NCBI GenBank assembly: GCA_026395995.1
Contig: JAPLXQ010000006.1
Span: 18,983-82,982 of the forward strand
Source: Candidatus Nomurabacteria bacterium
Lineage (GTDB): Bacteria; Patescibacteriota; Minisyncoccia; Phycocordibacterales; UBA9973
Reading direction: 5' to 3'
DNA length: 64,000 nt
In this document: in pieces, positions 4,556 to 38,207 of the stretch
Numbering within the stretch: the first letter of the stretch is position 1
Layout: every line of letters starts with the position of its first letter
Program-made: the position numbers and the translations under genes
Notes under the pieces: model-generated
What the model was told of the DNA's origin: nothing
The model's input: the letters and a program-made list of their open reading frames with translations, nothing else
Databases searched by the model: none

Positions 4556-4807
4556 ATGAAATTAAGAATTCTTTCATCAATAATACTCTTGTTTTCTATA
4601 CTTTTTCTACCATTTTGGGTGTCTGTAATTTTAGCCTTAATTGGTATGTTTTTATTTTTCTTTTTTTTCGAAGTTGCTATTATAATGTTAATTTCAGATT
4701 TATTTTTTGGTCTGTCCAGTAAAAATATATTTACTACATTCATTATTTTTATTATCCTTTTATTCCTAATTGAATTTTTAAAGAAAAAAATGAAATTTTA
4801 TAAATAA
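4556..4807 (+). CDS. Small polytopic membrane protein (hypothetical); start trimmed to the first ATG after the upstream stop
   Basis: The 4487..4807 ORF overlaps the upstream gene. The internal ATG at 4556 gives MKLRILSSIILLFSILFLPFWVSVILALIGMFLFFFFF..., which is almost entirely hydrophobic. Confidence 0.35.
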   Translation: MKLRILSSIILLFSILFLPFWVSVILALIGMFLFFFFFEVAIIMLISDLFFGLSSKNIFTTFIIFIILLFLIEFLKKKMKFYK

Positions 4808-4810
4808 AAA

Positions 4811-7750: not shown

Positions 7751-7782
7751 AATACACCTATAAATTTAGGTGTATTTTTTTT
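7751..7782. terminator. Bidirectional rho-independent terminator (ACACCTA taaattt TAGGTGT + T8) shared by the convergent small peptide (+) and HExxH peptidase (-) genes
   Basis: Hairpin and T-tract read directly at 7754-7782; A-rich on the other side. Confidence 0.7.
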
Positions 7783-8632: not shown

Positions 8633-8664
8633 ATAAATAAAGTGAACCTTAAAAAATATAATCC

Positions 8665-10161
8665 ATGAAAAATAATGAATATTTCCCTCGATTTATCGCC
8701 AAATGGATTAAACATCCTCAAGGCATACAAGTATATGCTCTTAAAGAAAGCATAACACTTGAAGAAATGAATGTACAGGCTATTTCTTCAATAGAAAAAA
8801 TATGTTCAGGTAAGAACAATCTTGATGAAGTGATCCGTAAATTGTCACTTAAATGGGACAAGGATGATATAGTGACATTGATTTATCTTTTCATTGAAAA
8901 GCAAATTATTGTTAATAATAAAGAAGTAAATCCTTTAGTTAAGGGTTGTAAGTTAAAAAAAATAGAGACCCTTTTACCAAACCAAGAAACAGTTGATATT
9001 TTAAATCTACCATATCAAGTTATTTACGGGAGAGCTGGTTCTGATATTTGGTCTTCAGGGAAAGATATAGATATTAATATTGCTACAAATAAAATGATTT
9101 CTGAAATTGCTGAATGGAATGCATGGAATTTTCCAAAAAAAGAATGTACTCTTTTTGGGTCATTTGAAAGTCTTGCTAGTAAAAACATACTAGTACCACC
9201 TAGTGATATTATTAATTATGCTGATTTTCAATATAGTGATATTTTATTTCCTTATAAAATATTCAATCCACTATCAAATTATAATTGGATTTGTGCAAAA
9301 AATTTTATAAATAACGAGAAGGTTTTTATATTCTCTGAACATATTCTTTTTACGCAAAATCCAATATATGTTGCTAATACATCGTCTGGTTGTTCAGCTC
9401 ATGTTAATAAAAATAAAGCTATTCATCATGCTGTGCATGAATTAATCGAAAGAGACGCTTTTATGATTTACTGGTTAAATAAGTTAGATCGACCTAGAAT
9501 TAATTTAAATTCATTACCAGAAAGTATTATATTTCGAGTAAAAAATATTCAAAATCTTGGATACCGTCTTACTATTAATGACATCAGTATGGGGATTGCT
9601 CCAGTTATTATGGTTGCTTTGCAAGATATAGATGGTTGTTATGTAACTTCTGGATTAGCTTCATTGTATGACTTCGAGGCCATGTTTAGCTCTGCATTAT
9701 CAGAAGTCGAGGTTAGTCTACTTCATATTTTGAATAGTAAAAAGATTGTACAAAAAAAATTGAAACCAGAAACAGTGAAATCTCTTGTTCAACATGAAGA
9801 GTTACATCAGCAAATAATGTATCAAAAAGAAACTTCATTCATATTTGAATCAAGTAAAGAAATTTCTTTTAAAAACTTTATGATAGCTTATAAGGATGAA
9901 AAAAATATCATCAAAACGATATTAGACAAAGGTTTTGATTTGTATGTTGTTGATGCAACAGATTGGGAGATTGATGTTTTACTACCAGAACATCGTCATA
10001 TTGTTCGAGCTATTATTCCAGGTCTTGTACCGTTATCTTTTGGTTATCACAAAGAACCATTAGGTATGTCTAGGATTTATGAAGTGCCTGTTCAGTTAGG
10101 TTTTCGTAGTAATACTATCTCGTATCAAGAGCTGAATAGATTTCCTCATCCGTTTAATTAA
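8665..10161 (+). CDS. RRE (PqqD-like) - YcaO fusion protein; predicted ATP-dependent peptide cyclodehydratase/backbone-modifying enzyme of a RiPP-type pathway
   Basis: N-terminal ~100 aa fits the PqqD/RRE pattern (ITLEEMNVQAISSIEKICSGKNNLDEVIRKLSLKWDKDDIVTLIYLFIEKQIIV). YcaO motifs follow: YGRAGSDIWSSGKDIDINIATNKMISEIAEWNAW and SSGCSAHVNKNKAIHHAVHELIERDAF (the ExxER ATP/Mg site). The C-terminus ends ...RFPHPFN, a PxP-type Pro-rich tail like that of azoline-forming YcaOs. Confidence 0.75.
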   Translation: MKNNEYFPRFIAKWIKHPQGIQVYALKESITLEEMNVQAISSIEKICSGKNNLDEVIRKLSLKWDKDDIVTLIYLFIEKQIIVNNKEVNPLVKGCKLKKIETLLPNQETVDILNLPYQVIYGRAGSDIWSSGKDIDINIATNKMISEIAEWNAWNFPKKECTLFGSFESLASKNILVPPSDIINYADFQYSDILFPYKIFNPLSNYNWICAKNFINNEKVFIFSEHILFTQNPIYVANTSSGCSAHVNKNKAIHHAVHELIERDAFMIYWLNKLDRPRINLNSLPESIIFRVKNIQNLGYRLTINDISMGIAPVIMVALQDIDGCYVTSGLASLYDFEAMFSSALSEVEVSLLHILNSKKIVQKKLKPETVKSLVQHEELHQQIMYQKETSFIFESSKEISFKNFMIAYKDEKNIIKTILDKGFDLYVVDATDWEIDVLLPEHRHIVRAIIPGLVPLSFGYHKEPLGMSRIYEVPVQLGFRSNTISYQELNRFPHPFN

Positions 10162-10169
10162 AACAACTT

Positions 10170-10201
10170 ACACCCAGCCAAATATCATCTGGGTGTTTTT
10201 A
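10170..10201 (+). terminator. Rho-independent terminator after the YcaO gene (ACACCCAG ccaaatatcat CTGGGTGT + TTTTTA)
   Basis: 8-bp perfect stem plus T-run, read directly 9 nt after the stop codon. Confidence 0.65.
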
Positions 10202-10202
10202 T

Positions 10203-11072
10203 TTGCTGATTTTTACAGGGGATTATGATATTATTAATACTATGTCAGAAGAAAATCAGAAAATTTCAATCGGGGATTATGATACTATAATGAATGATAG
10301 AAATATCTTTAATCAGATAGTGTATACACCGCTTTCTGAAGCGCTTAGGCTTCTCGAAGAAAGACAAAAAGATCCAGTATTAATGGCAAAAATTGAAGAA
10401 TTACTTAATGGTGATATTCCAGAAGTTTTGAAACCTATTGGTAAATATGCAGTTCAATTTAGACAAATTGCAACACCCAACAATGAATGTAAGTATTTTC
10501 TAAAGATTTCTAATAATTTCGGCTTAACTCCAACACTCATGGAATACCATAGTGATAAATTTTCTTCTAATAATTTTTTTAAACGTTCCCTAGGTCAATT
10601 ACACATACAAGGACCTATAAATAAAAAAAATGAATACCAGATTGAAAAAATTACCATTATGGATTTTAATAAACATAATGGTAAAAAATTAAATGAAGTT
10701 GTTACCCATTGGAACGAATCAATCATTGATTTCCATAGAAAATTATTTAATATATGTGACTTAAATACTAAAGAATGTAATTTTTATGACACTTCGGAAT
10801 GGATTAATAATCACGGATCTAGTCCAGAGGAATATTATAAACAATTCCTTATTTTATTTGTTTGTCATGGAATTTTATTTGAAAATTTTCTTTTAAACAA
10901 AGAAGAAAGTTCTTTTATTAAAAATGTAATTTTACCAGCATTAGAAGATGTTATAAATTTAACAGGAGTAAAACCACTAATTGTACCCGGTTCTCCTATT
11001 GATATTGAAGATGAAAATTTCTGGGTTCTATATCATCCAAATATTAAGACTATAATTCAAAATGAAAAATAA
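10203..11072 (+). CDS. Hypothetical protein (289 aa) with no recognisable motif; first gene of a tightly packed 4-gene unit with the SET protein, a Cys-rich protein and a histidine kinase. The true start may be the internal MSEENQK
   Basis: ORF only. Overlaps the next gene by 11 nt. Asn/Lys/Ile-rich. No assignable domain by eye. Confidence 0.35.
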   Translation: MLIFTGDYDIINTMSEENQKISIGDYDTIMNDRNIFNQIVYTPLSEALRLLEERQKDPVLMAKIEELLNGDIPEVLKPIGKYAVQFRQIATPNNECKYFLKISNNFGLTPTLMEYHSDKFSSNNFFKRSLGQLHIQGPINKKNEYQIEKITIMDFNKHNGKKLNEVVTHWNESIIDFHRKLFNICDLNTKECNFYDTSEWINNHGSSPEEYYKQFLILFVCHGILFENFLLNKEESSFIKNVILPALEDVINLTGVKPLIVPGSPIDIEDENFWVLYHPNIKTIIQNEK

Positions 11073-25816: not shown

Positions 25817-26365
25817 ATGGAATTAGAAACAAAAATTGAATCAATACTTTTTTTTAAAGGTGAGCCAGTATCTATCAATACATTGGCTAGTATTTTAAAA
25901 GTTTCAAAAGAAGAAATAAAAGAAGCTATTATAAACTTATCTACAAGTCTCGAAAATCGAGGAATAGTTTTATTGGTCAAAGAAGATGAAGTAAATCTTG
26001 GCACAAACCCGACAATGTCTGAAATGATTGAAAATTTACAAAAAGAAGAACTCAATAAAGACCTTTCAAAATCAAGCTTGGAGACACTTTCTATTATTTT
26101 ATACAAAAATGGTATTAGTCGTTCTGAAATTGATTATATTCGTGGGGTTAATTCCAGCTTTATTCTTCGAGCGCTTTCTATACGTGGATTAATAGAAAAA
26201 TTAACTGATCCAAAAGATAATCGAAAATATATTTATAAACCGACCTTTGATGTATTATCCTTTATGGGCATAAAATCAGTCGAAGAATTACCAAATTATT
26301 CTGAAATAAATCCAAAAATAGAGACCGAAATTAAAAAATTAGAAGAAGAAAATTATGATAACTAA
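25817..26365 (+). CDS. scpB: Segregation and condensation protein B
   Basis: IESILFFKGEPVSINTLASIL... winged-helix ScpB pattern, immediately downstream of scpA. Confidence 0.8.
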   Translation: MELETKIESILFFKGEPVSINTLASILKVSKEEIKEAIINLSTSLENRGIVLLVKEDEVNLGTNPTMSEMIENLQKEELNKDLSKSSLETLSIILYKNGISRSEIDYIRGVNSSFILRALSIRGLIEKLTDPKDNRKYIYKPTFDVLSFMGIKSVEELPNYSEINPKIETEIKKLEEENYDN

Positions 26366-27413
26366 CTTAGTAAAAATTTTTTTACCGACAACAATAGCTT
26401 TTATAGTGGGTATTTTATTTACACCACTGGCGACACATTATTTTTATAAATATAAAATGTGGAAGAAAAAAGTTCGAAATACTGAAGATGATATTTCTTT
26501 AGCTTTTAAAGCTATCCATGAAAAGAAAGAGCAGACAGAAGTATCTACACCATGTGTCGGAGGTATTATTATCTGGGTTTCTGTTTTATTTACTATATTG
26601 TTATTTTTTATTTTGGCTCTTATTTTCCCGAATGATATATTTACAAAATTAAACTTCTTGAGTCGCTCTCAGACATTTATTCCATTAACTTTATTTATCC
26701 TCGGATCAATACTAGGGCTGATAGACGATATTTTAGAAATTAATGGTAAATCAAATATCACCCGAGATTCAAACTGGTATACCAAATTAAAAATTTCTAT
26801 TATTGTGGCTTTTGGGTTGATTGCTGGATATTGGTTTTTCTTTAAATTGGGAATGTCTTCTATTCATATTCCTTTTGACGGTTCATGGCAACTCGGCATC
26901 TTTATAATTCCTTTTGTTGTCTTAGTCATGCTTGGAACTTTTTCTGGTGGAGTCATCGATGGTATCGACGGCCTTTCAGGTGGAGTACTGGCTGCAATTT
27001 TTGGTTCTTATACCTTTATTGCTTTTACTCATAATCAAATAGATTTAGCTACTTTTTCTGGAGTTATCACTGGTGCTATTTTAGCCTTTTTATGGTTCAA
27101 CATTCCACCTGCGAGGTTTTATATGGGGGAGACGGGGATGATGCCGCTCACTATTACATTGGCCACTATAGCCTTTCTGACTGATACAGTTTTAATTTTA
27201 CCTATTATTGCTTTTGCCTTAGTCGCCACTTCTTTATCTTCTAGCATACAAATGTTTTCAAAAAAATATTTTGGTAAAAAAGTTTTTTTAGTTGCACCAT
27301 TACATCATCATTTTGAAGCCTTAGGTTGGCCGACTTATAAAATCACAATGCGATACTGGGTACTCAGTATTATGTTTGCAATTATTGGAATAATTTTAGC
27401 TACCATAAGTTAA
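26355..27413 (+). CDS. mraY: Phospho-N-acetylmuramoyl-pentapeptide transferase MraY
   Basis: VIDGIDGLSGGV (DGxDGLxxG motif), NIPPARFYMGETG and APLHHHFEALGW (the MraY HHH motif); 10 TM helices. Confidence 0.85.
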   Translation: MITNLVKIFLPTTIAFIVGILFTPLATHYFYKYKMWKKKVRNTEDDISLAFKAIHEKKEQTEVSTPCVGGIIIWVSVLFTILLFFILALIFPNDIFTKLNFLSRSQTFIPLTLFILGSILGLIDDILEINGKSNITRDSNWYTKLKISIIVAFGLIAGYWFFFKLGMSSIHIPFDGSWQLGIFIIPFVVLVMLGTFSGGVIDGIDGLSGGVLAAIFGSYTFIAFTHNQIDLATFSGVITGAILAFLWFNIPPARFYMGETGMMPLTITLATIAFLTDTVLILPIIAFALVATSLSSSIQMFSKKYFGKKVFLVAPLHHHFEALGWPTYKITMRYWVLSIMFAIIGIILATIS

Positions 27414-27418
27414 TATAA

Positions 27419-28543
27419 ATGAATCCCGTTAGAAATATGAAAAAACAAAAAATAGATAGATTTTTTCTTGGAATAATAATCGCTTTAATTCTTGTCGGTA
27501 TAGCGATGTTTATTTCAGCTTCTTTGGGTCTATTAATGAGAAATCAGCATACTTTTTATTCTGTTTTAATTAGTCAGCTAGTATTTGGTCTTGGCCTCGG
27601 TGGCCTCGGTATATTTTTTTGCTTAAAAGTTCCAATTAAATTCTGGAGAAAAAATGCTTTTTATATTTTCCTTGGATCAATTATTTTAACAGCTATGGTT
27701 TTTGTCCCTCATTTAGGTTTTGTTCACGGTGGAGCAAGAAGATGGATATCTATACTCGGTTTTTCTTTTCAACCAAGTGAAATTTTAAAATTTTCTTTTG
27801 TTATTTATTTTTCAGCATGGCTTTCATGGGCCAAAAATAAGGTGCAAGATTTTAAATTTGGAATTTTACCATTAGGTGTAATGCTGGCTATTATTGCTGG
27901 TATTTTGTTAAAACAACCAGACACAAAAAGCTTTATTTTAATTACTATTACAGGTATCACAATGCTTTTTATCTCTGGAGTTCCTTGGAAATATATTATA
28001 GGAATAGGCCTAGCTTCCGTTTTACTCTTAGGAGGGCTCGTTATTTTTACTCCGTACTTGAGGGCCAGAGTGAATACTTTCATTCATCCTTCTCAAGATT
28101 CACAAGGATCTTCTTATCAACTTCAACAAAGCTTGATAGCCATAGGCTCAGGTGGAGTCTTTGGTAGAGGTTATGGTCAAAGTATTCAAAAATTTAGTTA
28201 TTTACCTGAACCACAAGGGGATTCTATTTTTGCTGTTGTTGGAGAAGAGCTTGGTTTTGTCGGCAGTGTCAGTATTATATTTCTATATGTACTTTTTGCT
28301 TTTCGAGGACTACGTATCGCCAATCGTAGCCCAGATCTTTTTGGTAGACTTTTGGTCTCGGGAATTGTTATACTTATCACAGCACAGTCATTCATGAACA
28401 TAGCTTCTATTATAGGTGTTTTTCCACTCACAGGTGTGCCATTAGTTTTCATGAGTCAAGGTGGAACTTCTTTTATGATAGATTTGATAGCTATAGGTAT
28501 AGTACTTCAAGTTTCCAAATTACAACGTGAGAATAATAATTAA
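27419..28543 (+). CDS. ftsW: SEDS-family peptidoglycan glycosyltransferase FtsW (RodA/FtsW family)
   Basis: FQPSEILKFSFVIYFSAWLS and PEPQGDSIFAVVGEELGFVGS, characteristic SEDS motifs. Positioned between mraY and murG. Confidence 0.8.
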   Translation: MNPVRNMKKQKIDRFFLGIIIALILVGIAMFISASLGLLMRNQHTFYSVLISQLVFGLGLGGLGIFFCLKVPIKFWRKNAFYIFLGSIILTAMVFVPHLGFVHGGARRWISILGFSFQPSEILKFSFVIYFSAWLSWAKNKVQDFKFGILPLGVMLAIIAGILLKQPDTKSFILITITGITMLFISGVPWKYIIGIGLASVLLLGGLVIFTPYLRARVNTFIHPSQDSQGSSYQLQQSLIAIGSGGVFGRGYGQSIQKFSYLPEPQGDSIFAVVGEELGFVGSVSIIFLYVLFAFRGLRIANRSPDLFGRLLVSGIVILITAQSFMNIASIIGVFPLTGVPLVFMSQGGTSFMIDLIAIGIVLQVSKLQRENNN

Positions 28544-28554
28544 TTAATAAAAAT

Positions 28555-29685
28555 ATGAAAATAGTTTTTACAGGTGGAGGTACTGGTGGACACTTTTATC
28601 CAATCATTGCTATTGCTCAAAGTGTTAACAAAATAATAGACAAAGAAAAAATATTACAAGCAAAATTGTATTATGTTTCTGATAGTCCTTACGACAAAGA
28701 GGCACTTTTTGAAAATGGATTAATTTATGAAGAAGTAAAGACTGGAAAAATGAGGACTTATTTTTCTATGAAAAATTTTTCTGATATGTTTAAAACATTT
28801 TTAGGAATTTTTTCTGCTCTTTATAAAATATATTCTATTTATCCAGATGTAGTTTTTGGTAAAGGTGGCTACGCTTCTTTTCCTACACTCGTCGCAGCGA
28901 GAATTTTAAGAATTCCTGTGATTATTCATGAGTCAGATTCTGCTCCAGGACGAGTAAATCTCTGGGCGGGAAAATTTGCAGAAAAAGTAGCAATATCTTT
29001 TCAAGAAGCAGGTCTTTATTTTCCAAAAGAAAAAACAGCTTGGACAGGTCAACCAATTCGCCAAGAAATACAACAGACAACCTCTAGAGATGAAGCTCTT
29101 CAGTATTGGAAACTTGAATCAAATATACCTGTACTTGTTATATTGGGTGGTTCACAAGGAGCAGAACTCATTAATAATGTCATTTTGGATGCATTACCTA
29201 GACTCGTAGAAAATTTTCAAGTTATCCATCAGACAGGGGTACGAAATTTCAAAATGGTAGATGATCGATCAGAAGTTATTCTAGCAAATAATCCAAATAA
29301 ATCTCGATATCAAAAAGTAGCTTTCTTAAATAATTTACAAATGAAAACATCTGCTGGTGTAGCTTCTATTATAGTCACACGTGCTGGTTCAGGATTATTT
29401 GAAATAGCGACTTGGGGCATTCCATCGATCTTGATTCCAATTACAAACACAAATATGGATCACCAAAAGAAAAATGCTTTCAATTATGCTCGTGCTGGAG
29501 CCTGTAGTGTAATAGAAGAGATGAATATGACTGCAAATATTCTAATGGCTGAAATAGAAAGAATTACTAGCGATAAAATTACATGGGCGAGAATGGCAGA
29601 AAGTGCTCGGACTTTCAACAAGACAGATGCTGCTGGTAAAATAGCTCAAGCTATTGTTGATATTGCTTTGAAACATGAAAAATAA
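28555..29685 (+). CDS. murG: UDP-N-acetylglucosamine--N-acetylmuramyl-(pentapeptide) pyrophosphoryl-undecaprenol N-acetylglucosamine transferase MurG
   Basis: MKIVFTGGGTGGHFYPIIAIAQ (the G-loop), the GT28 fold and the C-terminal GGSQGA motif. Confidence 0.88.
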   Translation: MKIVFTGGGTGGHFYPIIAIAQSVNKIIDKEKILQAKLYYVSDSPYDKEALFENGLIYEEVKTGKMRTYFSMKNFSDMFKTFLGIFSALYKIYSIYPDVVFGKGGYASFPTLVAARILRIPVIIHESDSAPGRVNLWAGKFAEKVAISFQEAGLYFPKEKTAWTGQPIRQEIQQTTSRDEALQYWKLESNIPVLVILGGSQGAELINNVILDALPRLVENFQVIHQTGVRNFKMVDDRSEVILANNPNKSRYQKVAFLNNLQMKTSAGVASIIVTRAGSGLFEIATWGIPSILIPITNTNMDHQKKNAFNYARAGACSVIEEMNMTANILMAEIERITSDKITWARMAESARTFNKTDAAGKIAQAIVDIALKHEK

Positions 29686-29724: not shown

Positions 29725-31062
29725 ATGTCAGAACAAAAAGTTATAACTAGATTTGCGCCGAGTCCTACTGGTAAATTCCATGTTGGAGGTATTCGATCTG
29801 CTCTTTATAATTATCTTTATGCGAGAAAACATAATGGTAAATTTATTTTACGTTGCGAAGATACTGATCCAGCTAGATCTAAAAAAGAATACGAGGATTA
29901 TTTTATAAATGTCTTCAAATGGCTTGGTTTAGAATATGATGAATTTTTTCGTCAGTCAGAACGCACAGAAATTTACAAAAAATATTTACATAAACTCTTA
30001 GAAGAAGATAAAATTTATATTTCAAAAGAAGAAATAAAAGAAGAGGGTCAAAGAAGCGAAGTTATTCGTTTTAGAAATCCAAATAAGATTGTCACTTTTC
30101 ACGATGAAGTTTTAGGAGATCTATCTTTCAATACCACAGAGCTTGGTGACTTTATTATTGCTCGTGATATTGAAAGCCCTCTTTATCACTTCACTGTTGT
30201 TGTAGATGATTTCGAAATGAATATCACCCATATTATTAGAGGGCAAGAGCATGTCTCAAATACACCAAGACAAATCCTTATTCAAGAAGCCATTGGTGCT
30301 CCACGACCTATTTACGCCCATGGTTCCGTTATTTTAAACGAAGAAAGAGCTAAGCTTTCAAAACGTGACCCATTAGTTCGTCCATCACTTGAATACAAAG
30401 ATGAAGGCTATTTACCAGAAGGACTACTGAACTTTATGGCTTTTTTAGGCTGGAACCCAGGAGGAGAAAAGGAAATCTATACATTAAAAGAATTAATTAA
30501 TGCTTTTTCTTTAGAAAGAATGCAGAAACCAGGTGCAATATTTAATCCTGAAAAATTAGAATGGTTCAACAAAGAACATCTAAAATTATTACCAAAAGAA
30601 AAACAATTAGAATATATTTTTGAATTTATTCCAGAAAACATAAAAAGTCTTCCAAATTATTCAAAAGAAAAAATTGAAAATATGTTAAATATTTTAATTG
30701 AAAGAATTACTCATTTTGGGCAAATTAAAGAGAATTTTGAAACAGGGGAGTATAATTTCGTCTTTTCACAACCAGAATATGATAAAACAAAATTATTATA
30801 TAAAACCTCTACAGTAGAACAAAAAAACGAAAATATAAATAAGACCATATCAGCTTTGCAAGAAATATTAGAAAGTAATTTCACAAAAGAAAATGTGAAA
30901 GAATCCTTAATGAAGATAGCAGATTCATTACCTAGTCGTGGAGAATTATTGCACCCAGTTCGTTTTTCTCTTTCAGGAATGGATAAATCACCAGATCCTT
31001 TTATTATTGCTGAAATTTTAGGAAAAAATGAAACAATATCTAGATTACAAAAAGCTTTATAA
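29725..31062 (+). CDS. gltX: Glutamyl-tRNA synthetase (catalytic-core form, 445 aa)
   Basis: ITRFAPSPTGKFHVGGIRSALYNYLYA (HIGH-type) and AKLSKRDP (KMSKS). Confidence 0.88.
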   Translation: MSEQKVITRFAPSPTGKFHVGGIRSALYNYLYARKHNGKFILRCEDTDPARSKKEYEDYFINVFKWLGLEYDEFFRQSERTEIYKKYLHKLLEEDKIYISKEEIKEEGQRSEVIRFRNPNKIVTFHDEVLGDLSFNTTELGDFIIARDIESPLYHFTVVVDDFEMNITHIIRGQEHVSNTPRQILIQEAIGAPRPIYAHGSVILNEERAKLSKRDPLVRPSLEYKDEGYLPEGLLNFMAFLGWNPGGEKEIYTLKELINAFSLERMQKPGAIFNPEKLEWFNKEHLKLLPKEKQLEYIFEFIPENIKSLPNYSKEKIENMLNILIERITHFGQIKENFETGEYNFVFSQPEYDKTKLLYKTSTVEQKNENINKTISALQEILESNFTKENVKESLMKIADSLPSRGELLHPVRFSLSGMDKSPDPFIIAEILGKNETISRLQKAL

Positions 31063-32329
31063 TTTAATATTCAGCTTTGTCATTTTAGGTTTTTTTCTAT
31101 TCAATTATCCTCCTTCAATACATGCTCAAACAGTAGAAAGTCTACAAAACCAAATAAATCAAAGGAATAATGACATTGCTAATTTGGAAAAAGAAATTGC
31201 TTCTTACAATTCTCAATTAAATGACCTTGGTCAACAAAAGAGTTCTTTAAATACATCTTTAAAGCAATTAGACTTAACTAGAAAAGAACTAACAGCTAAT
31301 ATTTCTCTGACTAGTAAAAAAATTGAAAATACAAATAACAAAATAAGTAACTTAAGTTCACAAATAAATGACAAACAAAGCTCTATTTCAAATGACGTAG
31401 CATCAATAATGCTTGAATTAAAAAAAGTAAATGAATTTGAACTGAATTCAAATTTAGAAATAATTTTATCAGAGACTGATTTTACAAAAATTTGGAATGA
31501 TATCGATAATATAAGTTCAGTTCAACAAAAGATTAGAGCAAAGATATCTGAATTAAAAAAAATAAAAGGAGATTTAGAAGATACAAAAAAAGTCACAACT
31601 AATGCACGCAATGAATTAGTCGCCTTAAAAGCAAAACTTGCTGACCAGAAAAAAATAGTTGACCAAAACACAAAAGAAAAAAATAAATTATTATCTGAAA
31701 CCAAAAACAATGAAGCAAATTATCAAAAACTTTTGAAAGATAGGTTAGCTAAAAAAGATGCTTTTGAAGCTGAGATACGTAACTATGAATCACAATTAAA
31801 GTTTATTTTAGATCCAAATAAACTTCCAGGACAAGGAGTTCTTTCTTGGCCACTAGATTATATTTATGTAACACAACTTTTTGGTAAAACTGAAGCAGGG
31901 AAGCGATTGTATGCAAATGGTACTCATAATGGTACAGATTTTCGTGCACCAGTCGGTACACCAGTCAAAGCTATGGCTGATGGTATAATCGCTGGTACTA
32001 ATGATACTGATTTGCAATGCCGAGGAGTTTCTTTTGGGAAATTAATACTCATAAAATATGATAATGGTTTAGCTAGTACTTATGGTCACCTTTCTTTGAT
32101 AAAAGTTAATGTTGGTCAAAGAGTCGCTCGAGGTGAAATAGTCGGCTACAGTGGCAATACAGGCTATTCTACAGGTCCACATTTGCATTTATCAGTCTAC
32201 GCTAAAGATGCTGTAAATATGAAAACTTTACCTAGTAAATCTTGCCCTGGAAAATCTTTAACTCAACCAATCTCAGCCATCAATGCTTATTTAGATCCAA
32301 TGTATTATCTACCTCCTTATAAGAAATAA
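31028..32329 (+). CDS. Secreted coiled-coil M23 metallopeptidase (EnvC/NlpD-like peptidoglycan DD-endopeptidase)
   Basis: Signal peptide; ~250 aa heptad-rich region (NLEKEIASYNSQLNDL...); C-terminal M23 motifs HNGTDFRAPVGTPVKAMADGII and GPHLHLSVY. Overlaps the gltX 3' end by 35 nt. Confidence 0.85.
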   Translation: MKQYLDYKKLYNLIFSFVILGFFLFNYPPSIHAQTVESLQNQINQRNNDIANLEKEIASYNSQLNDLGQQKSSLNTSLKQLDLTRKELTANISLTSKKIENTNNKISNLSSQINDKQSSISNDVASIMLELKKVNEFELNSNLEIILSETDFTKIWNDIDNISSVQQKIRAKISELKKIKGDLEDTKKVTTNARNELVALKAKLADQKKIVDQNTKEKNKLLSETKNNEANYQKLLKDRLAKKDAFEAEIRNYESQLKFILDPNKLPGQGVLSWPLDYIYVTQLFGKTEAGKRLYANGTHNGTDFRAPVGTPVKAMADGIIAGTNDTDLQCRGVSFGKLILIKYDNGLASTYGHLSLIKVNVGQRVARGEIVGYSGNTGYSTGPHLHLSVYAKDAVNMKTLPSKSCPGKSLTQPISAINAYLDPMYYLPPYKK

Positions 32330-32368: not shown

Positions 32369-32503
32369 ATGAAAAATAAACAAGGTGGTTTCCTTCAATT
32401 AATAATATTTATCGTGGTCATAGTATTTTTGATGCATTACTTTGGTCTTACTCTCACAGGAATTTTCAACTGGTTTGCTACTATGTTTCATAGTATTATC
32501 TAA
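32369..32503 (+). CDS. 44-aa single-TM peptide MKNKQGGFLQLIIFIVVIVFLMHYFGLTLTGIFNWFATMFHSII, first member of a 3-copy small-peptide family; absent from the ORF track
   Basis: Hand translation. The N-terminus MK[NKR]K-Q-x-GG plus hydrophobic helix is shared with the 32516 and 33482 ORFs. Confidence 0.35.
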   Translation: MKNKQGGFLQLIIFIVVIVFLMHYFGLTLTGIFNWFATMFHSII

Positions 32504-32515
32504 ATATATAATTTA

Positions 32516-32818
32516 ATGAAAAAAAAATATCAAAATGGTGCAGTCAGTATACTCGGTGCAATCATATTAGCTATTTTTATTTTTGTTATTTTAAGAGAAT
32601 ATTTTAATATAGACCTACAGGCAATCTTTATAAATGATCAAGTCATAAATACTTATCATCAAATTCAAACATCTCTATTAAGTTTTTGGCAGCACTATCT
32701 ACAAAACCCAGTTTCATATTTTTGGCATGCATTTTTAGATAACATGCAACGTATCCATGATGGTCAACCCACAGTATTTACCACTGCAGGACAAAATCTA
32801 ACAATACCATTACACTAA
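32516..32818 (+). CDS. Small membrane protein, paralogue 2 (100 aa) with conserved C-terminal motif YFWHAFLDNMQRIHDGQP
   Basis: MKKKYQNGAVSILGAIILAIFIFVIL N-terminus. The C-terminal motif is nearly identical to that of the 33482 ORF (YFWHSFVSNMQRMHNGQP). Confidence 0.5.
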   Translation: MKKKYQNGAVSILGAIILAIFIFVILREYFNIDLQAIFINDQVINTYHQIQTSLLSFWQHYLQNPVSYFWHAFLDNMQRIHDGQPTVFTTAGQNLTIPLH

Positions 32819-32820
32819 AA

Positions 32821-33438
32821 ATGATTTTTACAAAGAAAGAGTTAATTCTATTTAAAAAATTAAATACACCAGAAAAAATACAAGATTTTTTGAATTCGAT
32901 TCCTTTTAATTTTGAAAAAAATGGTATTGATACTATCAAATCACCACTTGAAACCTTACATAAATGGAATGCTCATTGTTTTGAAGGAGCATTACTTGGT
33001 GCTTATATATTGTCTTTGCATGGTCATAAACCATTACTTTTGTATCTTCAGTCTACAAAAGATACAAAAAACTATGACAGTGATCATGTTATAGCTCCAT
33101 TCAAAGAAAATGGCTATTGGGGTGCTTTATCAAAAACAAATCATGGAATTTTACGATATCGTGAACCAATTTATAAAAACATTCGTGAACTTGTAATGTC
33201 CTATTTCCATGAATATTTTTTAGATGACGGTACAAAAACTCTCCGTAAATATTCAGATGTTTTAGATTTAAATAAATTAAAAATAAATTGGCAAAATAGT
33301 GAAGATGATTTATGGATAATCGATAGGGAATTGGATAAAATAAAACATTACAATATCCTACCTAAAAAATTTAAAAAACTACGTAAGGCTGACAAAATAG
33401 AAATAGCTACTGGTAAACTAATCGAATGGGTTAAATAA
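32821..33438 (+). CDS. Transglutaminase-like / papain-fold cysteine peptidase-family protein (putative)
   Basis: SPLETLHKWNAHCFEGALLGAYILSLHGHKPLLLY fits the G-x-C-x-x-F/A ... catalytic-Cys region of transglutaminase-like proteases. Downstream DHVIAPFKENGYW supplies the His, followed by Asp-rich segments. Confidence 0.45.
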   Translation: MIFTKKELILFKKLNTPEKIQDFLNSIPFNFEKNGIDTIKSPLETLHKWNAHCFEGALLGAYILSLHGHKPLLLYLQSTKDTKNYDSDHVIAPFKENGYWGALSKTNHGILRYREPIYKNIRELVMSYFHEYFLDDGTKTLRKYSDVLDLNKLKINWQNSEDDLWIIDRELDKIKHYNILPKKFKKLRKADKIEIATGKLIEWVK

Positions 33439-33481
33439 AAAATATTTGATAAATACTAAAATATATTCTATTATAGACAAC

Positions 33482-33682
33482 ATGAAAAGGAAACAGACAA
33501 ATGGTGGCTACATAAGCCAAATAGTATCTATAATCGTATTAATTTTAATTATTATATTTCTTTCAAGAAATTCTACAGTTAAATATTTTTGGCACTCATT
33601 CGTTAGCAATATGCAACGCATGCATAATGGCCAACCAAATGACTGGCAACTCGCTGCACCAATCATTCCATTTAATCGTTAG
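33482..33682 (+). CDS. Small membrane protein, paralogue 3 (start trimmed to MKRKQTNGGYISQIV...), same family as the 32516 ORF
   Basis: N-terminal charged head + TM helix and the C-terminal YFWHSFVSNMQRMHNGQP motif shared with 32516..32818. Confidence 0.5.
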   Translation: MKRKQTNGGYISQIVSIIVLILIIIFLSRNSTVKYFWHSFVSNMQRMHNGQPNDWQLAAPIIPFNR

Positions 33683-33690: not shown

Positions 33691-33769
33691 CAGCTTATTT
33701 AGCGATATCTTGATGTTGCTAAATAAGCTGAATCTTTTGGGTATGGTTCTAAGTAACCATACCCAAAAG
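33691..33769. terminator. Twin perfect hairpins between convergent genes: CAGCTTATTTAGC/GCTAAATAAGCTG (13 bp) and CTTTTGGGTATGGTT/AACCATACCCAAAAG (15 bp)
   Basis: Both inverted repeats are perfect and were read directly. They lie between the 33482 (+) and 33796 (-) genes, one serving each direction. Confidence 0.6.
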
Positions 33770-33795: not shown

Positions 33796-34218
33796 TTAAT
33801 GACAGCTACTAGAAAGCTCATAACCAGCACTTTGAGCCTCTTCCCCTGTGCTAAAATATATTTTATTTGATTCCTTAATAGTCTTACCAGCAGAACAACC
33901 GACTGGATAATACTTCTTCCCTTTACTAGATGCAAAAAAGTTTCCAGATTTATTAGAATTATTTATATCTGTATTTGAAGTGCTTTTCTGAGCTATATTT
34001 AGCTCATTTTTGCTATTTTGAGCACTTTCTAGACCATTTAGAGCATTTGCCTGATTTGAGCTATTTTCGACCTTAAATTGACCATTTTGACCTTGTATTG
34101 ATAGTCTACCTAGCATAAATGAGCCTAAGCCAACTAAAATGACAATTAAAATAATTAGGATGTCTTTTCCCTTTTCACTTAATATTTTCTCCTCAATAAA
34201 ATACTTGATTTTTTCCAT
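33796..34218 (-). CDS. Membrane-anchored protein with a low-complexity linker and a small C-terminal Cys-containing domain (KYYPVGCSAGKTIKESNKIYFSTGEEAQSAGYELSSSC)
   Basis: N-terminal TM (ILIILIVILVGLGSFMLG); Asn/Ser/Gln-rich linker; C-terminal motif Y-x-x-x-G-C ... I-x-x-x-N ... F-x-S-x-x-x-A-x-x-x-G-Y ... C. Confidence 0.4.
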   Translation of the reverse strand: MEKIKYFIEEKILSEKGKDILIILIVILVGLGSFMLGRLSIQGQNGQFKVENSSNQANALNGLESAQNSKNELNIAQKSTSNTDINNSNKSGNFFASSKGKKYYPVGCSAGKTIKESNKIYFSTGEEAQSAGYELSSSCH

Positions 34219-36302: not shown

Positions 36303-36542
36303 TTAAATTCTTGGCTTAGAATTATTTTGAGTAAAATCTTCATCTTCAGAAGAAGTATCAAAATTGGCTGATTTTACGTTTTCTACATCAATCTTTTCCT
36401 TTTTATAAATAAGATAGGCAAAATACATAATACCAAGACCTGTCAAAGTAAAAAGAGTCTGCTTCCAACTATATGGAAAACCTAAATATGGCAATATCGC
36501 CACCCAAATACCAATAATTAAAAATATTCGTGCTTTTTTCAT
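36303..36542 (-). CDS. Small two-TM membrane protein (hypothetical), start trimmed to MKKARIF
   Basis: Two hydrophobic helices plus an acidic tail. Confidence 0.35.
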   Translation of the reverse strand: MKKARIFLIIGIWVAILPYLGFPYSWKQTLFTLTGLGIMYFAYLIYKKEKIDVENVKSANFDTSSEDEDFTQNNSKPRI

Positions 36543-36580
36543 TCCCCTATTATACCTTAAAAGTACTAAAGTATGCAATA

Positions 36581-36610
36581 AAAAATCCCCTCAAATTTGA
36601 GGGGATTTTT
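36581..36610. terminator. Bidirectional terminator AAAAATCCCCTCAAATTTGAGGGGATTTTT
   Basis: Perfect 10-bp stem flanked by A5 and T5, read directly. Confidence 0.75.
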
Positions 36611-36629
36611 CAATAAGAAATAAAAATAA

Positions 36630-38207
36630 TTAGTTCTTGTTGAAATCTGTTGTAAACTTTTCGGTCATTGATTTTCTCAATTTTTGTTGAGTTTCAGTAT
36701 CAATTTTTGAACCAGCAAGCACTGACTCGATAGCATCCATATGATTTGAAAAATCTTTGATTACATCGTTATCTGAAGTATTTTTCTTATCAAAAAGGAT
36801 TTTTCGATTTTGAGCTGCAGTTTCTCTTTGAGCAATACTTGTTTGCATCAAGTCATTCATCATCAATTGGAAATTATTAGTTTTTGTCTGCAAATCAATC
36901 TTTTGATTTTGCTGATTTTCAACTGAATATTTTTCTTTTTGAAGAGCAATAGCTTCTTCATAAGTATCTTTTCCAGACATTAGTTTCATTAAAACCACCA
37001 ATGACTCTAATATAAAGAAGAAAATAAATAATGACCAAAACAAAATTGGTGTCTTCTTCGCAATCGCCCACATTGCTGTGTATCGATCAGAATAACCATC
37101 CGCCTTTTCTGTCATAATTGCTTCTTTACGCTCTTCAAAAAACTTTTTTGCAGTAGAGATCTTTTCTAATAATTCAGGTTCTCGCTTTTGTTGTTTTTCA
37201 ACAGCAGAAACTAAGGCCAGGTATTCAGCACAAGTGTTTTTTGACTGATCAAATTGAGCAATCATCTCTTTTAATGCAACTGAATCTGCTCGAAGCGCTT
37301 CTTTTTTTGCTTTTGCAGCAGCGCCATCACCCGGAATATGAGTTCCAACTCTGCCTTCTATTTCTCCAACTAAAGCATCTCTGCGTGAAGTAATTAATGC
37401 ACGTTGTTCGTTAATCAAATCTTGTTGTGTTTTTAACCAAGAACCATATGCAGTATTAGCAATTTGAACTTCGTTTGTTCGTTGATCACGTTCATTATTT
37501 ATTATTGTAACGTAATTGGCAATACTATCATTAACTTGTGCTACTTTTAATTTTTTCTTCAGAGCAATCTCCTGATGAATTTCAGTATTAAAGATCCAAA
37601 TATTTATAAAAGTAGTATTAACAAATGCTATTGCCATAATCATAACTAAACGTGAAACAGCAACCCAAACTCTTTTCTTTCCAGCTTCGTGGTCCATAAA
37701 GACAACAATACCGCGATCAAGGGCCCAGATAATTAAATACCATAATACTGCTACTATGATACCTGTACTTACTGACAAAAAAATATCACTCCACATTCTG
37801 TACGCAAGTGCTGAAGAAAAAGTAATTGTAATAAACATCAAGATTCCAAACACACTTTTTTTGAATCTTACAGAATTGGGCTGATCTCTCAAAATCGAAA
37901 GGTCAGCACCACCGAACCATTGGAAAAATTCTCCAAAATTACGGAAAGGTATTACATTTCTGATGCTTCTAACTGTTTCAAAAATAACAGCAACAACAAG
38001 TGAAAAGAATGCCCAAGGCATTGCAAATGCATTACCGAATACTTCTCCTGTTTTTATAAGAGCTTGTTTCGGTGATTTAGTTGATATCCATTCTGTAATA
38101 AATACACCAATGACGACAAGTAGAACAGCTGACAAAATAATAATAACTGCCAAGCTCAGGTATGACATACCCTGTTTAAAAAAAATAGATAAAAATGTTT
38201 TTTTCAT
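36630..38207 (-). CDS. Large membrane protein with an internal coiled-coil region (hypothetical; DUF4407-like architecture)
   Basis: Four or more TM helices in the N-terminal half; a long heptad-rich segment (about 250-420); one more TM; Gln/Asn-rich tail. Confidence 0.4.
   Translation of the reverse strand: MKKTFLSIFFKQGMSYLSLAVIIILSAVLLVVIGVFITEWISTKSPKQALIKTGEVFGNAFAMPWAFFSLVVAVIFETVRSIRNVIPFRNFGEFFQWFGGADLSILRDQPNSVRFKKSVFGILMFITITFSSALAYRMWSDIFLSVSTGIIVAVLWYLIIWALDRGIVVFMDHEAGKKRVWVAVSRLVMIMAIAFVNTTFINIWIFNTEIHQEIALKKKLKVAQVNDSIANYVTIINNERDQRTNEVQIANTAYGSWLKTQQDLINEQRALITSRRDALVGEIEGRVGTHIPGDGAAAKAKKEALRADSVALKEMIAQFDQSKNTCAEYLALVSAVEKQQKREPELLEKISTAKKFFEERKEAIMTEKADGYSDRYTAMWAIAKKTPILFWSLFIFFFILESLVVLMKLMSGKDTYEEAIALQKEKYSVENQQNQKIDLQTKTNNFQLMMNDLMQTSIAQRETAAQNRKILFDKKNTSDNDVIKDFSNHMDAIESVLAGSKIDTETQQKLRKSMTEKFTTDFNKN

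What the first reader, a model, noticed from the sequence alone, without database searches (positions are those of the whole stretch)
32369..33682. Three-member family of small single-TM peptides flanking a transglutaminase-like cysteine peptidase
Peptides of 44, 100 and ~66 aa share an MK[KNR]K-x-Q-x-GG head plus a TM helix. The two longer ones share a strikingly conserved C-terminal motif, YFWH[AS]F[LV][DS]NMQR[IM]H[DN]GQP. Between them sits a 205-aa protein with a transglutaminase-like Cys/His core (NAHCFEGALLG...DHVIAPF). The arrangement resembles a peptidase with a small array of substrate, immunity or bacteriocin-like peptides. The first peptide was missed by the ORF cutoff.
Basis: partly seen in the sequence, partly recalled or inferred. 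Interest (0 to 1): 0.55.

Follow-up and report, generated by a model that had tools for sequence, protein, structure and literature searches.

The report
Small membrane proteins beside two peptidases
The three small membrane proteins are real and conserved, but across related bacteria they travel with the cell-wall-cutting M23 enzyme encoded just upstream, while the cysteine protease sitting between them is the already characterised CPR-C4 enzyme that moved in recently.

Summary
Three ORFs (44, 100 and 66 aa) share a basic head, one TM helix and, for two of them, a C-terminal motif. All three are under purifying selection.

The 205-aa protein is a clear member of the published CPR-C4 family. 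[quoted passage not shown] That part is already known.

The proposed link between peptidase and peptides fails.
- Of 80 other CPR-C4 loci, only the closest relative carries the peptides.
- Of 80 other peptide-family loci, only one carries CPR-C4.

The peptides belong to an unannotated family of about 100-aa proteins in Paceibacteria, with at least 163 clusters at 50% identity. The family lies directly downstream of a coiled-coil, catalytically intact M23 (EnvC-like) peptidoglycan peptidase. This sits at the end of an mraY-ftsW-murG-gltX-M23 gene string. M23 is directly upstream in 54 of 56 metagenome loci and 6 of 7 long contigs.

One relative (L088) has all three peptides in tandem with no CPR-C4. 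CPR-C4 was therefore inserted between the second and third peptide genes in one narrow lineage.

The peptides are predicted N-in/C-out. Their conserved parts would then face the M23 enzyme, not the cytoplasmic CPR-C4.

My inference is that they are membrane-anchored partners of the M23 hydrolase. This is not shown.

The parts
26355..29685 (+). mraY (26355-27413), ftsW/rodA-family (27419-28543) and murG (28555-29685). This is the upstream part of the conserved co-directional cell-envelope gene string.
   Evidence: Pfam Glycos_transf_4 1e-21, FTSW_RODA_SPOVE 1e-93, Glyco_transf_28 6e-29. The same order ftsW-murG-gltX-M23-peptide is seen in L081, L083, L085 and L086.
29725..31062 (+). gltX (glutamyl-tRNA synthetase). 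It is a conserved member of the string and overlaps the start of the M23 gene.
   Evidence: ORF. tblastn finds it upstream of the peptide gene in 7 of 7 long contigs and in the metagenome loci where enough sequence is held.
31028..32329 (+). Coiled-coil plus M23 (LytM) peptidoglycan endopeptidase with EnvC-like architecture. It has an N-terminal signal or anchor sequence and intact HxxxD and HxH zinc motifs. It is the conserved upstream neighbour of the peptide family.
   Evidence: Pfam Peptidase_M23 7e-26 at residues 299-394, plus many coiled-coil families over residues ~30-260. PDB hits are ShyA and similar for the catalytic domain; 8tzk_E aligns over residues 49-391. HNGTD and HLH are read from the translation. 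It lies directly upstream of the peptide genes in 54 of 56 metagenome loci and 6 of 7 long contigs.
32369..32503 (+). pep1, 44 aa. Short form: basic head, TM helix, short aromatic tail (the N-terminal module only).
   Evidence: Family HMM E 2.4e-8. 93% aa identity to the L001 orthologue with dS about 0.95, dN/dS 0.05. A pep1-like gene precedes the pep2-like gene in 58 of 71 metagenome loci. Annotated as NT068_01145.
32516..32818 (+). pep2, 100 aa. Full-length member: head, TM (~8-29), long helix (41-81), C-terminal motif YFWHAFLDNMQRIHDGQP.
   Evidence: Profile search finds 163 representative clusters at E<=1e-3 and 164 proteins, none with a Pfam domain. AF2 gives pLDDT 83 with helices 12-29, 34-38, 41-81 and 87-93. 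dN/dS is 0.11.
32821..33438 (+). CPR-C4-family cysteine protease (vasohibin/transglutaminase-like fold). Cys53, His89 and Leu111 have the residue spacing of the published C61-H93-L115 triad, allowing for a 4-aa insertion. No signal peptide. It starts 2 nt after the pep2 stop codon. It is a lineage-specific insertion into the peptide array.
   Evidence: hmmsearch against PDB 7ob6/7pjo 'CPR-C4' gives E 4e-71. The AF2 model (pLDDT 83, pTM 0.84) matches 7ob6_B by Foldseek at E 5e-22, TM 0.88, 48% identity, with VASH1 next at E 6e-8, TM 0.5. C53, H89 and L111 are invariant in 18 homologues. There are 5239 homologues. Biochemistry is in PMC9108980.
33482..33682 (+). pep3, 66 aa. Short form: head, TM, then directly the C-terminal motif YFWHSFVSNMQRMHNGQP. 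The middle helix is absent.
   Evidence: BLASTP to pep2 gives E 2e-11. The orthologue in L088 (P0225) lies directly after the pep2-like gene with no CPR-C4 between them. Other short forms are P0228 and P0255. dN/dS is 0.15. Annotated as NT068_01160.
33691..33730 (+). Strong hairpin (18-bp stem, 4-nt loop) followed by a T-rich tail. It is the likely terminator of the M23-pep1-pep2-CPR-C4-pep3 transcription unit, and it lies between convergent genes.
   Evidence: Terminator scan. This is the first + strand terminator-like site after position 31900; none lies between M23 and pep3.
33796..34218 (-). Convergent 140-aa membrane-anchored protein with an Ada-type Cys-rich C-terminus. It is a syntenic neighbour and marks the downstream border of the array.
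   Evidence: Pfam Ada_Zn_binding 0.003, below the cutoff. tblastn finds orthologues at the same position in L081, L082, L086 and L088, and the ORF list shows one in L001.

Best explanation
SHOWN. The locus is the 3' end of a conserved Paceibacteria (Candidatus Nomurabacteria) cell-envelope gene string: mraY, ftsW, murG, gltX, coiled-coil M23 peptidase.

pep1, pep2 and pep3 are real paralogues under purifying selection. They belong to an unannotated, Paceibacteria-wide family of bitopic membrane proteins whose conserved genomic partner is the upstream M23 gene. The family is modular.
- pep2 carries both modules: a TM helix with a juxtamembrane helix, then a long helix ending in W..F..NMxRIxxGxPT.
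- pep1 is the N-terminal module alone.
- pep3 is a TM helix fused directly to the C-terminal module.

The 205-aa gene is an ordinary member of the characterised CPR-C4 cysteine-protease family. It was inserted between pep2 and pep3 in one narrow lineage (window, L001, L089).

INFERRED. The peptides sit N-in/C-out, which puts their helical ectodomains on the same side of the membrane as the exported M23 enzyme. They probably associate with each other through the shared TM and juxtamembrane module. They would then form a membrane-anchored docking or regulatory platform for the coiled-coil M23 peptidoglycan endopeptidase. That would be a functional analogue of FtsX (with SweC/SweD in Bacillus) for EnvC, PcsB or CwlO.

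CPR-C4 acts in the cytoplasm on an unknown substrate, which the published work suggests is acidic, and has no specific relation to the peptides.
For: Family and coding status.
- 163 clusters at 50% identity and 164 proteins, all named Patescibacteria, Paceibacterota or Minisyncoccia where a name exists.
- dN/dS 0.05-0.22 for the closer comparisons.

Synteny with M23.
- GltX-M23-peptide on one strand, with gaps of roughly 15-150 nt, in 6 of 7 long contigs whose M23 is only 41-63% identical to the window's.
- 54 of 56 metagenome loci with at least 700 bp of upstream sequence, about 45 distinct sequences, M23 identity 39-73%.
- A pep1-like plus pep2-like tandem in 58 of 71 loci.

Independence from CPR-C4.
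- 0 of 71 and 0 of 7 peptide loci contain CPR-C4.
- Only L001 among 80 other CPR-C4 loci contains peptides.
- L088 has M23-pep1-pep2-pep3-NUDIX with no CPR-C4.
- The CPR-C4 paper also found no conserved gene context.

Topology and structure.
- K/R bias is 2.9 on the N side against 1.3 on the C side of the TM, with the N side richer in 113 of 147 members.
- The M23 protein starts with a hydrophobic signal-like segment ending IHA-Q, and CPR-C4 has none.
- The pep2 model is a TM helix plus one 40-residue helix at pLDDT above 90 but pTM 0.42. That is an extended element that would need a partner.

Transcription.
- No terminator-like site lies between M23 and pep3, and a strong one follows pep3.

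CPR-C4 identity.
Against: - The partner role rests on synteny, predicted topology and shape only. No interaction was computed or measured.
- L085 has the peptide gene directly after gltX with no M23 within 4 kb. L118 and L155 also lack a full M23 directly upstream. The link is therefore strong but not absolute.
- Conserved order in reduced CPR genomes can persist without any functional coupling.
- The metagenome sample was drawn with one motif pattern and is biased towards one subclade.
- M23 may be anchored by its own N-terminal segment, which would make a tether unnecessary.
- Whether these genomes have FtsEX was not determined.
- In the window lineage CPR-C4 starts 2 nt after pep2 and is probably co-transcribed. 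A newly acquired relationship cannot be excluded.
Confidence: 0.5

Rival explanations
1. CPR-C4 and the peptides form a unit, with the protease processing, maturing or being inhibited by the flanking peptides, which would be substrates, immunity proteins or bacteriocin-like products. A variant is that a small peptide acts as an SVBP-like helper for the vasohibin-like enzyme.
For: - Adjacency in the window, L001 and L089. The CPR-C4 start lies 2 nt after the pep2 stop, and there is no terminator until after pep3.
- The heads share a Gly-Gly before the TM helix.
- CPR-C4 has an unknown natural substrate (PMC9108980).
- Human vasohibins need a small helical partner (same paper).
- CPR-C4 is so widespread in Paceibacteria (5239 homologues) that action in trans is possible even when the genes are not adjacent.
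Against: - Co-occurrence is 1 of 80 in one direction, and 0 of 71 plus 0 of 7 in the other.
- The three-peptide array exists without CPR-C4 in L088.
- The conserved motif is predicted to lie outside the membrane, while CPR-C4 is cytoplasmic.
- The published pocket is positively charged, which implies an acidic substrate. The cytoplasmic heads are Lys/Arg-rich.
- The paper reports a homodimer that lacks the SVBP-contacting helices, with no indication that a partner is needed.
- The heads are 7-9 aa, far shorter than double-glycine leaders. There is no exporter and no hit in Pfam, NCBIfam, PHROGs or PADLOC.
Confidence: 0.06
2. The peptides are structural components of the divisome or elongasome, analogous to FtsL, FtsB or DivIC. 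Those are bitopic proteins of about 100 aa with a helical ectodomain. In this model the peptides act with FtsW, MurG or PBPs and not specifically with the M23 enzyme.
For: - Same size, N-in bitopic architecture and a single long extracytoplasmic helix.
- Location in a string with mraY, ftsW and murG.
- Tandem paralogues could form heterodimers as FtsL and FtsB do (general knowledge of those proteins).
Against: - None of 35 members scanned showed a consistent match to any Pfam family at E<=1, and DivIC, FtsL and FtsB did not appear among the families listed.
- The gene is always placed after M23, not between rsmH and ftsI.
- The ectodomain is rich in Trp/Tyr/Phe and has a conserved Pro in mid-helix, unlike a leucine-zipper coiled coil.
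- The short forms pep1 and pep3 lack the long helix altogether.
Confidence: 0.2
3. The synteny is inertia only. These are generic small membrane proteins of unknown, unrelated role, for example membrane homeostasis, that happen to be inherited next to M23.
For: - L085 keeps the peptide gene without M23.
- gltX, an unrelated housekeeping gene, is also part of the conserved string. So order is conserved here without obvious functional logic.
Against: - Everything downstream of the peptide genes varies: NUDIX, LexA, MazG, PNP-like, CPR-C4.
- The M23-peptide junction persists down to about 40% M23 identity.
Confidence: 0.18
4. A holin-like or lysis-cassette reading, with small TM proteins releasing or activating a murein hydrolase. 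Alternatively, a pilin-like reading, with a class III signal peptide.
For: - Small TM proteins lie next to a peptidoglycan hydrolase.
- There are faint TM-only hits to holin Pfam families (E about 0.08-0.1).
- A Gly immediately precedes the hydrophobic segment, as in prepilins.
Against: - No PHROG hit and no tblastn hit in 50,697 phage records.
- The genes sit in a housekeeping string conserved across a class, with no phage genes nearby.
- M23 has its own export signal.
- No Glu at position +5 in any aligned member, and some members have no head at all (P0141, P0184).
Confidence: 0.04

Closest known systems
CPR-C4 (PDB 7OB6, 7OB7, 7PJO; Cornish et al., J Biol Chem 2022, PMC9108980)
   Same: The 205-aa protein is a family member. 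It matches over its full length at E 4e-71 and 48% identity, with TM 0.88. Cys53, His89 and Leu111 are invariant and spaced like the published C61-H93-L115 triad. It has the same length class, the same CPR restriction and the same lack of conserved gene context.
   Different: There is a 4-residue insertion (residues 81-84) between the catalytic Cys and His, shared only with the closest relative among those aligned. Its position inside a peptide gene array is specific to this lineage.
Human vasohibins VASH1/2 with SVBP (tubulin detyrosinases; transglutaminase-like cysteine proteases)
   Same: Remote fold and catalytic-core similarity: Foldseek E 6e-8 with TM 0.50, profile E 1e-3.
   Different: The Pfam Vasohibin score is 12.8 bits against a cutoff of 24. 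There is no tubulin in bacteria. CPR-C4 is reported as a homodimer that lacks the SVBP-binding helices and has a pocket of opposite charge. The flanking peptides are membrane proteins that do not co-occur with the enzyme, so they are not SVBP analogues.
FtsEX-EnvC, FtsEX-PcsB and FtsEX-CwlO with SweC/SweD (membrane complexes that hold and control coiled-coil cell-wall hydrolases; PMC10214136, PMC6705773)
   Same: The neighbour of the peptide family has EnvC architecture, a long coiled coil plus a LytM/M23 domain. The proposed logic is the same: a membrane-embedded partner that presents a helical ectodomain to an exported coiled-coil hydrolase.
   Different: The peptides are single-pass proteins of 44-110 aa with no ATPase partner and no sequence similarity to FtsX, SweC or SweD. 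The M23 domain keeps its zinc ligands, whereas E. coli EnvC is catalytically dead (the latter from my own knowledge). No interaction has been shown.
FtsL, FtsB and DivIC (small bitopic divisome proteins)
   Same: About 100 aa, N-in/C-out, one long extracytoplasmic helix, paralogous partners, and genes located among cell-wall synthesis genes.
   Different: There is no detectable sequence relationship. The gene position differs, lying after M23 and not before ftsI. The helix is aromatic-rich with a conserved Pro, and half-length forms exist.
Double-glycine-leader bacteriocins with C39 peptidase exporters
   Same: Small peptides next to a papain-superfamily-like cysteine protease, with a Gly-Gly near the N-terminus.
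   Different: The 'leader' is 7-9 residues and is followed by a TM helix. There is no ABC transporter. The protease is not C39. The peptides are housekeeping-linked and conserved across a bacterial class.

Membership tests
CPR-C4 cysteine protease family | Full-length sequence homology to the crystallised CPR-C4 | tested here: met
   hmmsearch of an 18-sequence profile against the PDB: 7ob6_A E 4.1e-71, profile positions 4-203.
CPR-C4 cysteine protease family | Same three-dimensional fold | tested here: met
   AF2 model (pLDDT 83, pTM 0.84) against 7ob6_B: Foldseek E 4.7e-22, TM 0.88, rmsd 1.9 A.
CPR-C4 cysteine protease family | Non-canonical Cys-His-Leu(carbonyl) catalytic triad (C61, H93, L115 in CPR-C4) | tested here: met
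   Cys53, His89 and Leu111 are invariant in 18 homologues. Spacing H to L is 22 residues, as published. Spacing C to H is 32 plus the 4-aa insertion. The residues align in the HMMER output. Triad numbering is from PMC9108980.
CPR-C4 cysteine protease family | Protease activity | not testable with these tools
   Shown for CPR-C4 itself with BODIPY-casein (PMC9108980). Not shown for this orthologue.
Vasohibin (Pfam PF14822) / transglutaminase-like proteases | Score above the Pfam gathering threshold | tested here: not met
   12.8 bits against a cutoff of 24; DUF553 15.5 against 20.5. A few homologues do carry a precomputed PF14822 hit. The relation is at superfamily or fold level only.
Peptidase-plus-cognate-peptide cassette (bacteriocin, immunity or substrate array) | Conserved co-occurrence of the peptidase with the peptides | tested here: not met
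   1 of 80 other CPR-C4 loci has peptides. 0 of 71 and 0 of 7 peptide loci have CPR-C4. L088 has the array without CPR-C4.
Peptidase-plus-cognate-peptide cassette (bacteriocin, immunity or substrate array) | Peptide region and protease in the same cellular compartment | tested here: not met
   The positive-inside rule places the conserved C-terminal parts outside the membrane. CPR-C4 has no signal peptide or TM. This is a prediction, not an experiment.
Double-glycine leader peptides / C39 exporters | Leader of 15-30 aa ending in GG, plus an ABC transporter with a C39 domain nearby | tested here: not met
   The heads are 7-9 aa and run straight into a TM helix. No ABC transporter was found among the neighbouring genes examined.
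Type IV pilin-like proteins (class III signal peptide) | Gly at -1, Glu at +5, N_methyl motif | tested here: not met
   No Glu at +5 in any of 35 aligned members. Two members have no head at all. No N_methyl hit appears among the families listed for the 35 members.
FtsL / FtsB / DivIC | Bitopic N-in protein of about 100 aa with a helical ectodomain | tested here: met
   AF2 helices 12-29 (TM) and 41-81; charge bias. This is architecture only.
FtsL / FtsB / DivIC | Sequence membership (Pfam DivIC, FtsL or FtsB) | tested here: not met
   These families do not appear among the families listed at E<=1 for 35 members, nor in NCBIfam for the window peptides.
EnvC-like coiled-coil LytM factors (for the upstream M23 protein) | N-terminal export signal, long coiled coil, C-terminal LytM/M23 domain | tested here: met
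   Pfam M23 at residues 299-394 and multiple coiled-coil families over residues 30-260. 8tzk_E aligns over residues 49-391.
EnvC-like coiled-coil LytM factors (for the upstream M23 protein) | Partnership with FtsEX | not tested
   No FtsE or FtsX was found among the window ORFs scanned. The rest of the genome is not available here.
Holin / lysis cassette | Phage context or holin family membership | tested here: not met
   No PHROG hit, no phage tblastn hit, and a housekeeping context.

The most novel reading that the evidence does not exclude
pep1, pep2 and sometimes pep3 form a previously undescribed single-pass membrane receptor that docks and controls a catalytically active EnvC-like M23 peptidoglycan hydrolase in Paceibacteria. 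That would be an ATPase-independent alternative to the FtsEX mechanism for regulating cell-wall cleavage in ultra-small, reduced-genome bacteria.
Probability: 0.3. Interest if true: 0.55.

Novelty: new variant of a known kind. Interest (0 to 1): 0.3.

Why it matters
The protease is already known, and this locus says nothing new about its substrate. That negative result is useful, because CPR-C4's substrate is still open and this locus looked like a lead.

The new observation is different. A widespread, unannotated family of small membrane proteins, usually a tandem short-plus-long pair, is almost invariably encoded right after the coiled-coil M23 cell-wall hydrolase in Paceibacteria. How these uncultured bacteria with reduced genomes control cell-wall cleavage during division is essentially unknown. 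This family gives a concrete, testable candidate for the membrane partner of that hydrolase.

It is a modest, family-level lead and not a surprise.

Tried and rejected
- **Strict and loose motif search.** I scanned 80 CPR-C4 loci in six frames. Only the closest relative matched.
- **Any small TM ORFs flanking CPR-C4.** The flanking ORFs in those 80 loci belong to unrelated families (MscL-like, DoxX-like, DsbB-like, a 67-aa family), so there is no common neighbour.
- **The search for related loci on metagenome contigs with alignment A3.** I replaced it with a degenerate DNA pattern for NMERIxxGxPTD[FY]. That pattern is biased to one subclade.
- **Family libraries.** Pfam, NCBIfam, PHROGs and PADLOC gave nothing above noise for the peptides, only TM-driven hits.
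- **DUF8434.** A precomputed 'weak' PF28542 flag on P0228 could not be followed up. The family is not in the local Pfam copy, no match appeared, and no paper mentions it.
- **Foldseek of the pep2 model against the PDB.** There was no meaningful match, as expected for a single long helix.
- **hhalign of the family against the 106-aa ORF upstream of the PBP gene (4487-4807).** They are unrelated. That ORF is polytopic and looks MreD-like by position.
- **Rejected readings.** The SVBP-like helper, double-glycine leader, prepilin and holin readings are rejected for the reasons given under the rival explanations.
- **Literature.** No paper was found describing this peptide family or its link to M23.
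- **Promoter scan.** Promoter-like sites are at chance level (19 found, 16.3 expected), so I draw no conclusion from them.
Full report
**1. What is in the sequence**

The region holds four tightly packed + strand ORFs.
- pep1: 32369-32503, 44 aa
- pep2: 32516-32818, 100 aa
- a 205-aa ORF: 32821-33438
- pep3: ATG 33482 to 33682, 66 aa

The gaps between them are 12, 2 and 43 nt.

The three small proteins start MKNKQGG, MKKKYQNG and MKRKQTNGG, and each head is followed by one hydrophobic helix. pep2 and pep3 share YFWH[AS]F[LV][DS]NMQR[IM]H[DN]GQP, with 13 of 18 residues identical (BLASTP E 2e-11). pep1 aligns with the N-terminal third of pep2. That match is weak by itself (E 0.002) but significant against a family HMM (E 2.4e-8).

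No other ORF in the 64-kb window fits the head-plus-TM pattern.

Comparison with orthologues shows purifying selection on all three.
- pep1 is 93% identical to its L001 orthologue although synonymous sites have diverged to dS of about 0.95 (dN/dS 0.05).
- pep2 gives dN/dS 0.11.
- pep3 against L088 gives 0.15.
- CPR-C4 gives 0.19 in the same comparison with L001.

The ORFs are genes, annotated as hypothetical proteins NT068_01145 to NT068_01160 of a Candidatus Nomurabacteria MAG.

**2. The 205-aa protein is CPR-C4**

Pfam gives only sub-threshold hits to transglutaminase-like DUF553 and to Vasohibin. A profile of 18 homologues finds PDB entries 7OB6, 7OB7 and 7PJO, named 'CPR-C4', at E 4e-71 over the full length. 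Human VASH1 follows at E 1e-3.

The AlphaFold model (pLDDT 83, pTM 0.84) superposes on 7ob6_B with TM 0.88 and 48% identity. Vasohibins come next at TM 0.5, then LapG.

The published work (PMC9108980) reports the following.
- CPR-C4 is a highly conserved CPR protein and a homodimer.
- It has a Cys61-His93-Leu115(carbonyl) triad and degrades labelled casein.
- It has a positively charged pocket, which implies an acidic substrate.
- Its natural substrate is unknown and its gene neighbourhood is not conserved.

In the window protein Cys53, His89 and Leu111 occupy these positions and are invariant in the alignment. The family is very large and slow-evolving: 5239 hits, and the best 120 are 63-78% identical.

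**3. The peptides do not go with CPR-C4**

I fetched 80 further genomic loci carrying a CPR-C4 homologue, with 4 kb of flank where the contig allowed.
- The motif occurs only in the closest relative, L001, whose CPR-C4 is 78% identical.
- The flanks elsewhere hold unrelated genes such as MscL-like, DoxX-like and DsbB-like proteins.
- An HMM built from 149 diverse family members still finds members only in the window and L001.

In L001, pep1 and pep2 precede CPR-C4. pep3 is absent, and a 277-aa gene on the other strand takes its place.

**4. The peptides are a large family in their own right**

A word-indexed search with pep2 alone found only 4 proteins. An exhaustive profile search found 163 representative clusters at 50% identity with E<=1e-3, nearly all about 90-130 aa and matching end to end. 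A second profile search found 164 proteins. None has a Pfam domain, and all are labelled Patescibacteria, Paceibacterota or Minisyncoccia where a name exists.

The consensus has these elements in order:
- a basic head
- a Gly
- a TM helix
- SYFx[IV]DLKxxVESPxxQxN
- WxxYLxxPxxYxWNxIFxxLLWxxFxxNMxRIxxGxPTxF...AP

The family is modular. Many hits cover only the N-terminal two-thirds. A few short proteins (P0225, P0228, P0255) are, like pep3, a TM helix fused directly to the C-terminal motif.

**5. The true conserved neighbour is the M23 peptidase**

Seven family members on long contigs were looked up.
- In all seven the peptide gene follows gltX on the same strand.
- In six it lies immediately after a gene of about 430 aa for a coiled-coil M23 peptidase.
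- ftsW and murG usually lie further upstream.
- L27, L9 and an S41 protease usually lie further downstream.
- tblastn finds no CPR-C4 in any of them.
- The M23 proteins are only 41-63% identical to the window's, so the order is old.

The window has exactly this string: scpA, scpB, mraY, ftsW, murG, gltX, M23 (31028-32329), pep1, pep2, [CPR-C4], pep3, then a convergent Ada-like membrane protein, L27, L9 and S41.

A degenerate DNA pattern for NMERIxxGxPTD[FY] pulled 71 metagenome loci, about 45 of them distinct.
- 54 of the 56 with at least 700 bp of upstream sequence have M23 directly upstream on the same strand.
- None of the 71, 480 kb in total, encodes CPR-C4.
- 58 have a pep1-like short gene just before the pep2-like gene.

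This sample is biased to one subclade.

**6. History of the locus**

- L088 (M23 65% identical to the window's) carries M23, pep1-like, pep2-like, pep3-like and NUDIX, with no CPR-C4.
- L089 (M23 90% identical) carries M23, pep1, pep2 and CPR-C4 up to the contig end.

The three-peptide array therefore predates the arrival of CPR-C4. CPR-C4 was inserted cleanly between pep2 and pep3 in the lineage of the window, L001 and L089. Counting every peptide-family locus examined, CPR-C4 is adjacent in 3 of 82, all in that one lineage.

**7. Anatomy and likely mechanism**

Charge bias indicates N-in/C-out topology. Mean K/R is 2.9 on the N side and 1.3 on the C side of the TM, and the N side is richer in 113 of 147 members.

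The pep2 model has a TM helix (12-29), a short helix (34-38), a 40-residue helix (41-81, pLDDT above 90) and a short C-terminal helix. Its pTM is low (0.42). This describes an extended helical ectodomain with no fold of its own, and it has no PDB analogue.

The M23 protein has these features:
- a signal-like N-terminus
- about 230 residues of coiled coil
- an M23 domain with HxxxD (HNGTD) and HxH (HLH) intact

It therefore has EnvC architecture but is probably active.

No terminator-like site lies between M23 and pep3, and an 18-bp-stem hairpin with a T tail follows pep3 at 33691-33730. The five genes are probably one transcript.

From conserved adjacency, shared compartment and shape, I infer that pep1, pep2 and pep3 are membrane-anchored partners of the M23 hydrolase, acting as a tether or regulator. 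This would be analogous in logic to FtsX (and SweC/SweD) for EnvC, PcsB or CwlO (PMC10214136, PMC6705773). It is inference. No interaction was tested. One long contig (L085) and two metagenome loci lack an adjacent full M23.

**8. Rivals**

These are contradicted by the co-occurrence counts, by compartment and by charge, and the CPR-C4 paper reports no indication that a partner is needed.
- **An FtsL/FtsB/DivIC-like role.** This fits the architecture but not the sequence, the gene position or the aromatic-rich helix. It remains possible.
- **Pure synteny inertia.** This cannot be excluded, since gltX is also part of the string.
- **Holin-like, pilin-like and defence readings.** These find no support.

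**9. Verdict**

The protease is a known family. The proposed protease-peptide system is not supported.

What remains is a modest new lead. An uncharacterised family of small membrane proteins, widespread in Paceibacteria, is genomically tied to the EnvC-like M23 cell-wall hydrolase.

Noticed in passing
window 7781-11072: A YcaO-domain gene (8665-10161) lies next to a DUF2268 Zn-protease-like gene (7781-8632, minus strand) and an ORF with no Pfam hit (10203-11072). This could be an azoline/RiPP-type or other YcaO system in a CPR genome.
   Followed up: no
window 920-3019: A 699-aa ATPase resembling a type IV secretion coupling protein (TrwB, TraG, HerA-like) with a treble-clef zinc finger at residues 453-488.
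   Followed up: no
window 33796-34218 (minus strand): A 140-aa N-terminally anchored protein whose Cys-rich C-terminus weakly matches the Ada zinc-binding domain (E 0.003, below the cutoff). It is conserved at the same position, between the peptide array and L27, in L001, L081, L082, L086 and L088.
   Followed up: partly
window 32821-33438, residues 81-84: The CPR-C4 orthologues of the window and L001 carry a 4-residue insertion (DTKN / NKKD) between the catalytic Cys and His. The other 16 aligned homologues lack it.
   Followed up: no
window 32516-32818, around residues 66-70: pep2 of the window lineage lacks about 9 residues of the family's 'WNxIFxxLLW' segment relative to the consensus. The long helix is therefore shorter here than in most members.
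   Followed up: no
window 29725-31062 and loci L081-L088: gltX is stably embedded between murG and the M23 gene across Paceibacteria, and in the window it overlaps the M23 start by 35 nt. A tRNA synthetase is an odd fixed member of a cell-wall gene string.
   Followed up: partly
window 3697-6511: A 285-aa ORF with no Pfam hit, a polytopic 106-aa ORF (4487-4807) and a class B PBP (4811-6511) sit in the arrangement expected for mreC, mreD and pbp2. The first two are not recognised by Pfam.
   Followed up: partly
window 36303-38207 (minus strand): A 91-aa two-TM protein and a 525-aa DUF4407 protein follow the S41 protease. Other Paceibacteria (L081) have a PBP at the corresponding position.
   Followed up: no
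L085 4001-4333: On one long contig (876 kb) the peptide-family gene follows gltX directly, with no M23 gene within 4 kb. This is an exception to the synteny and worth checking for a relocated M23.
   Followed up: partly
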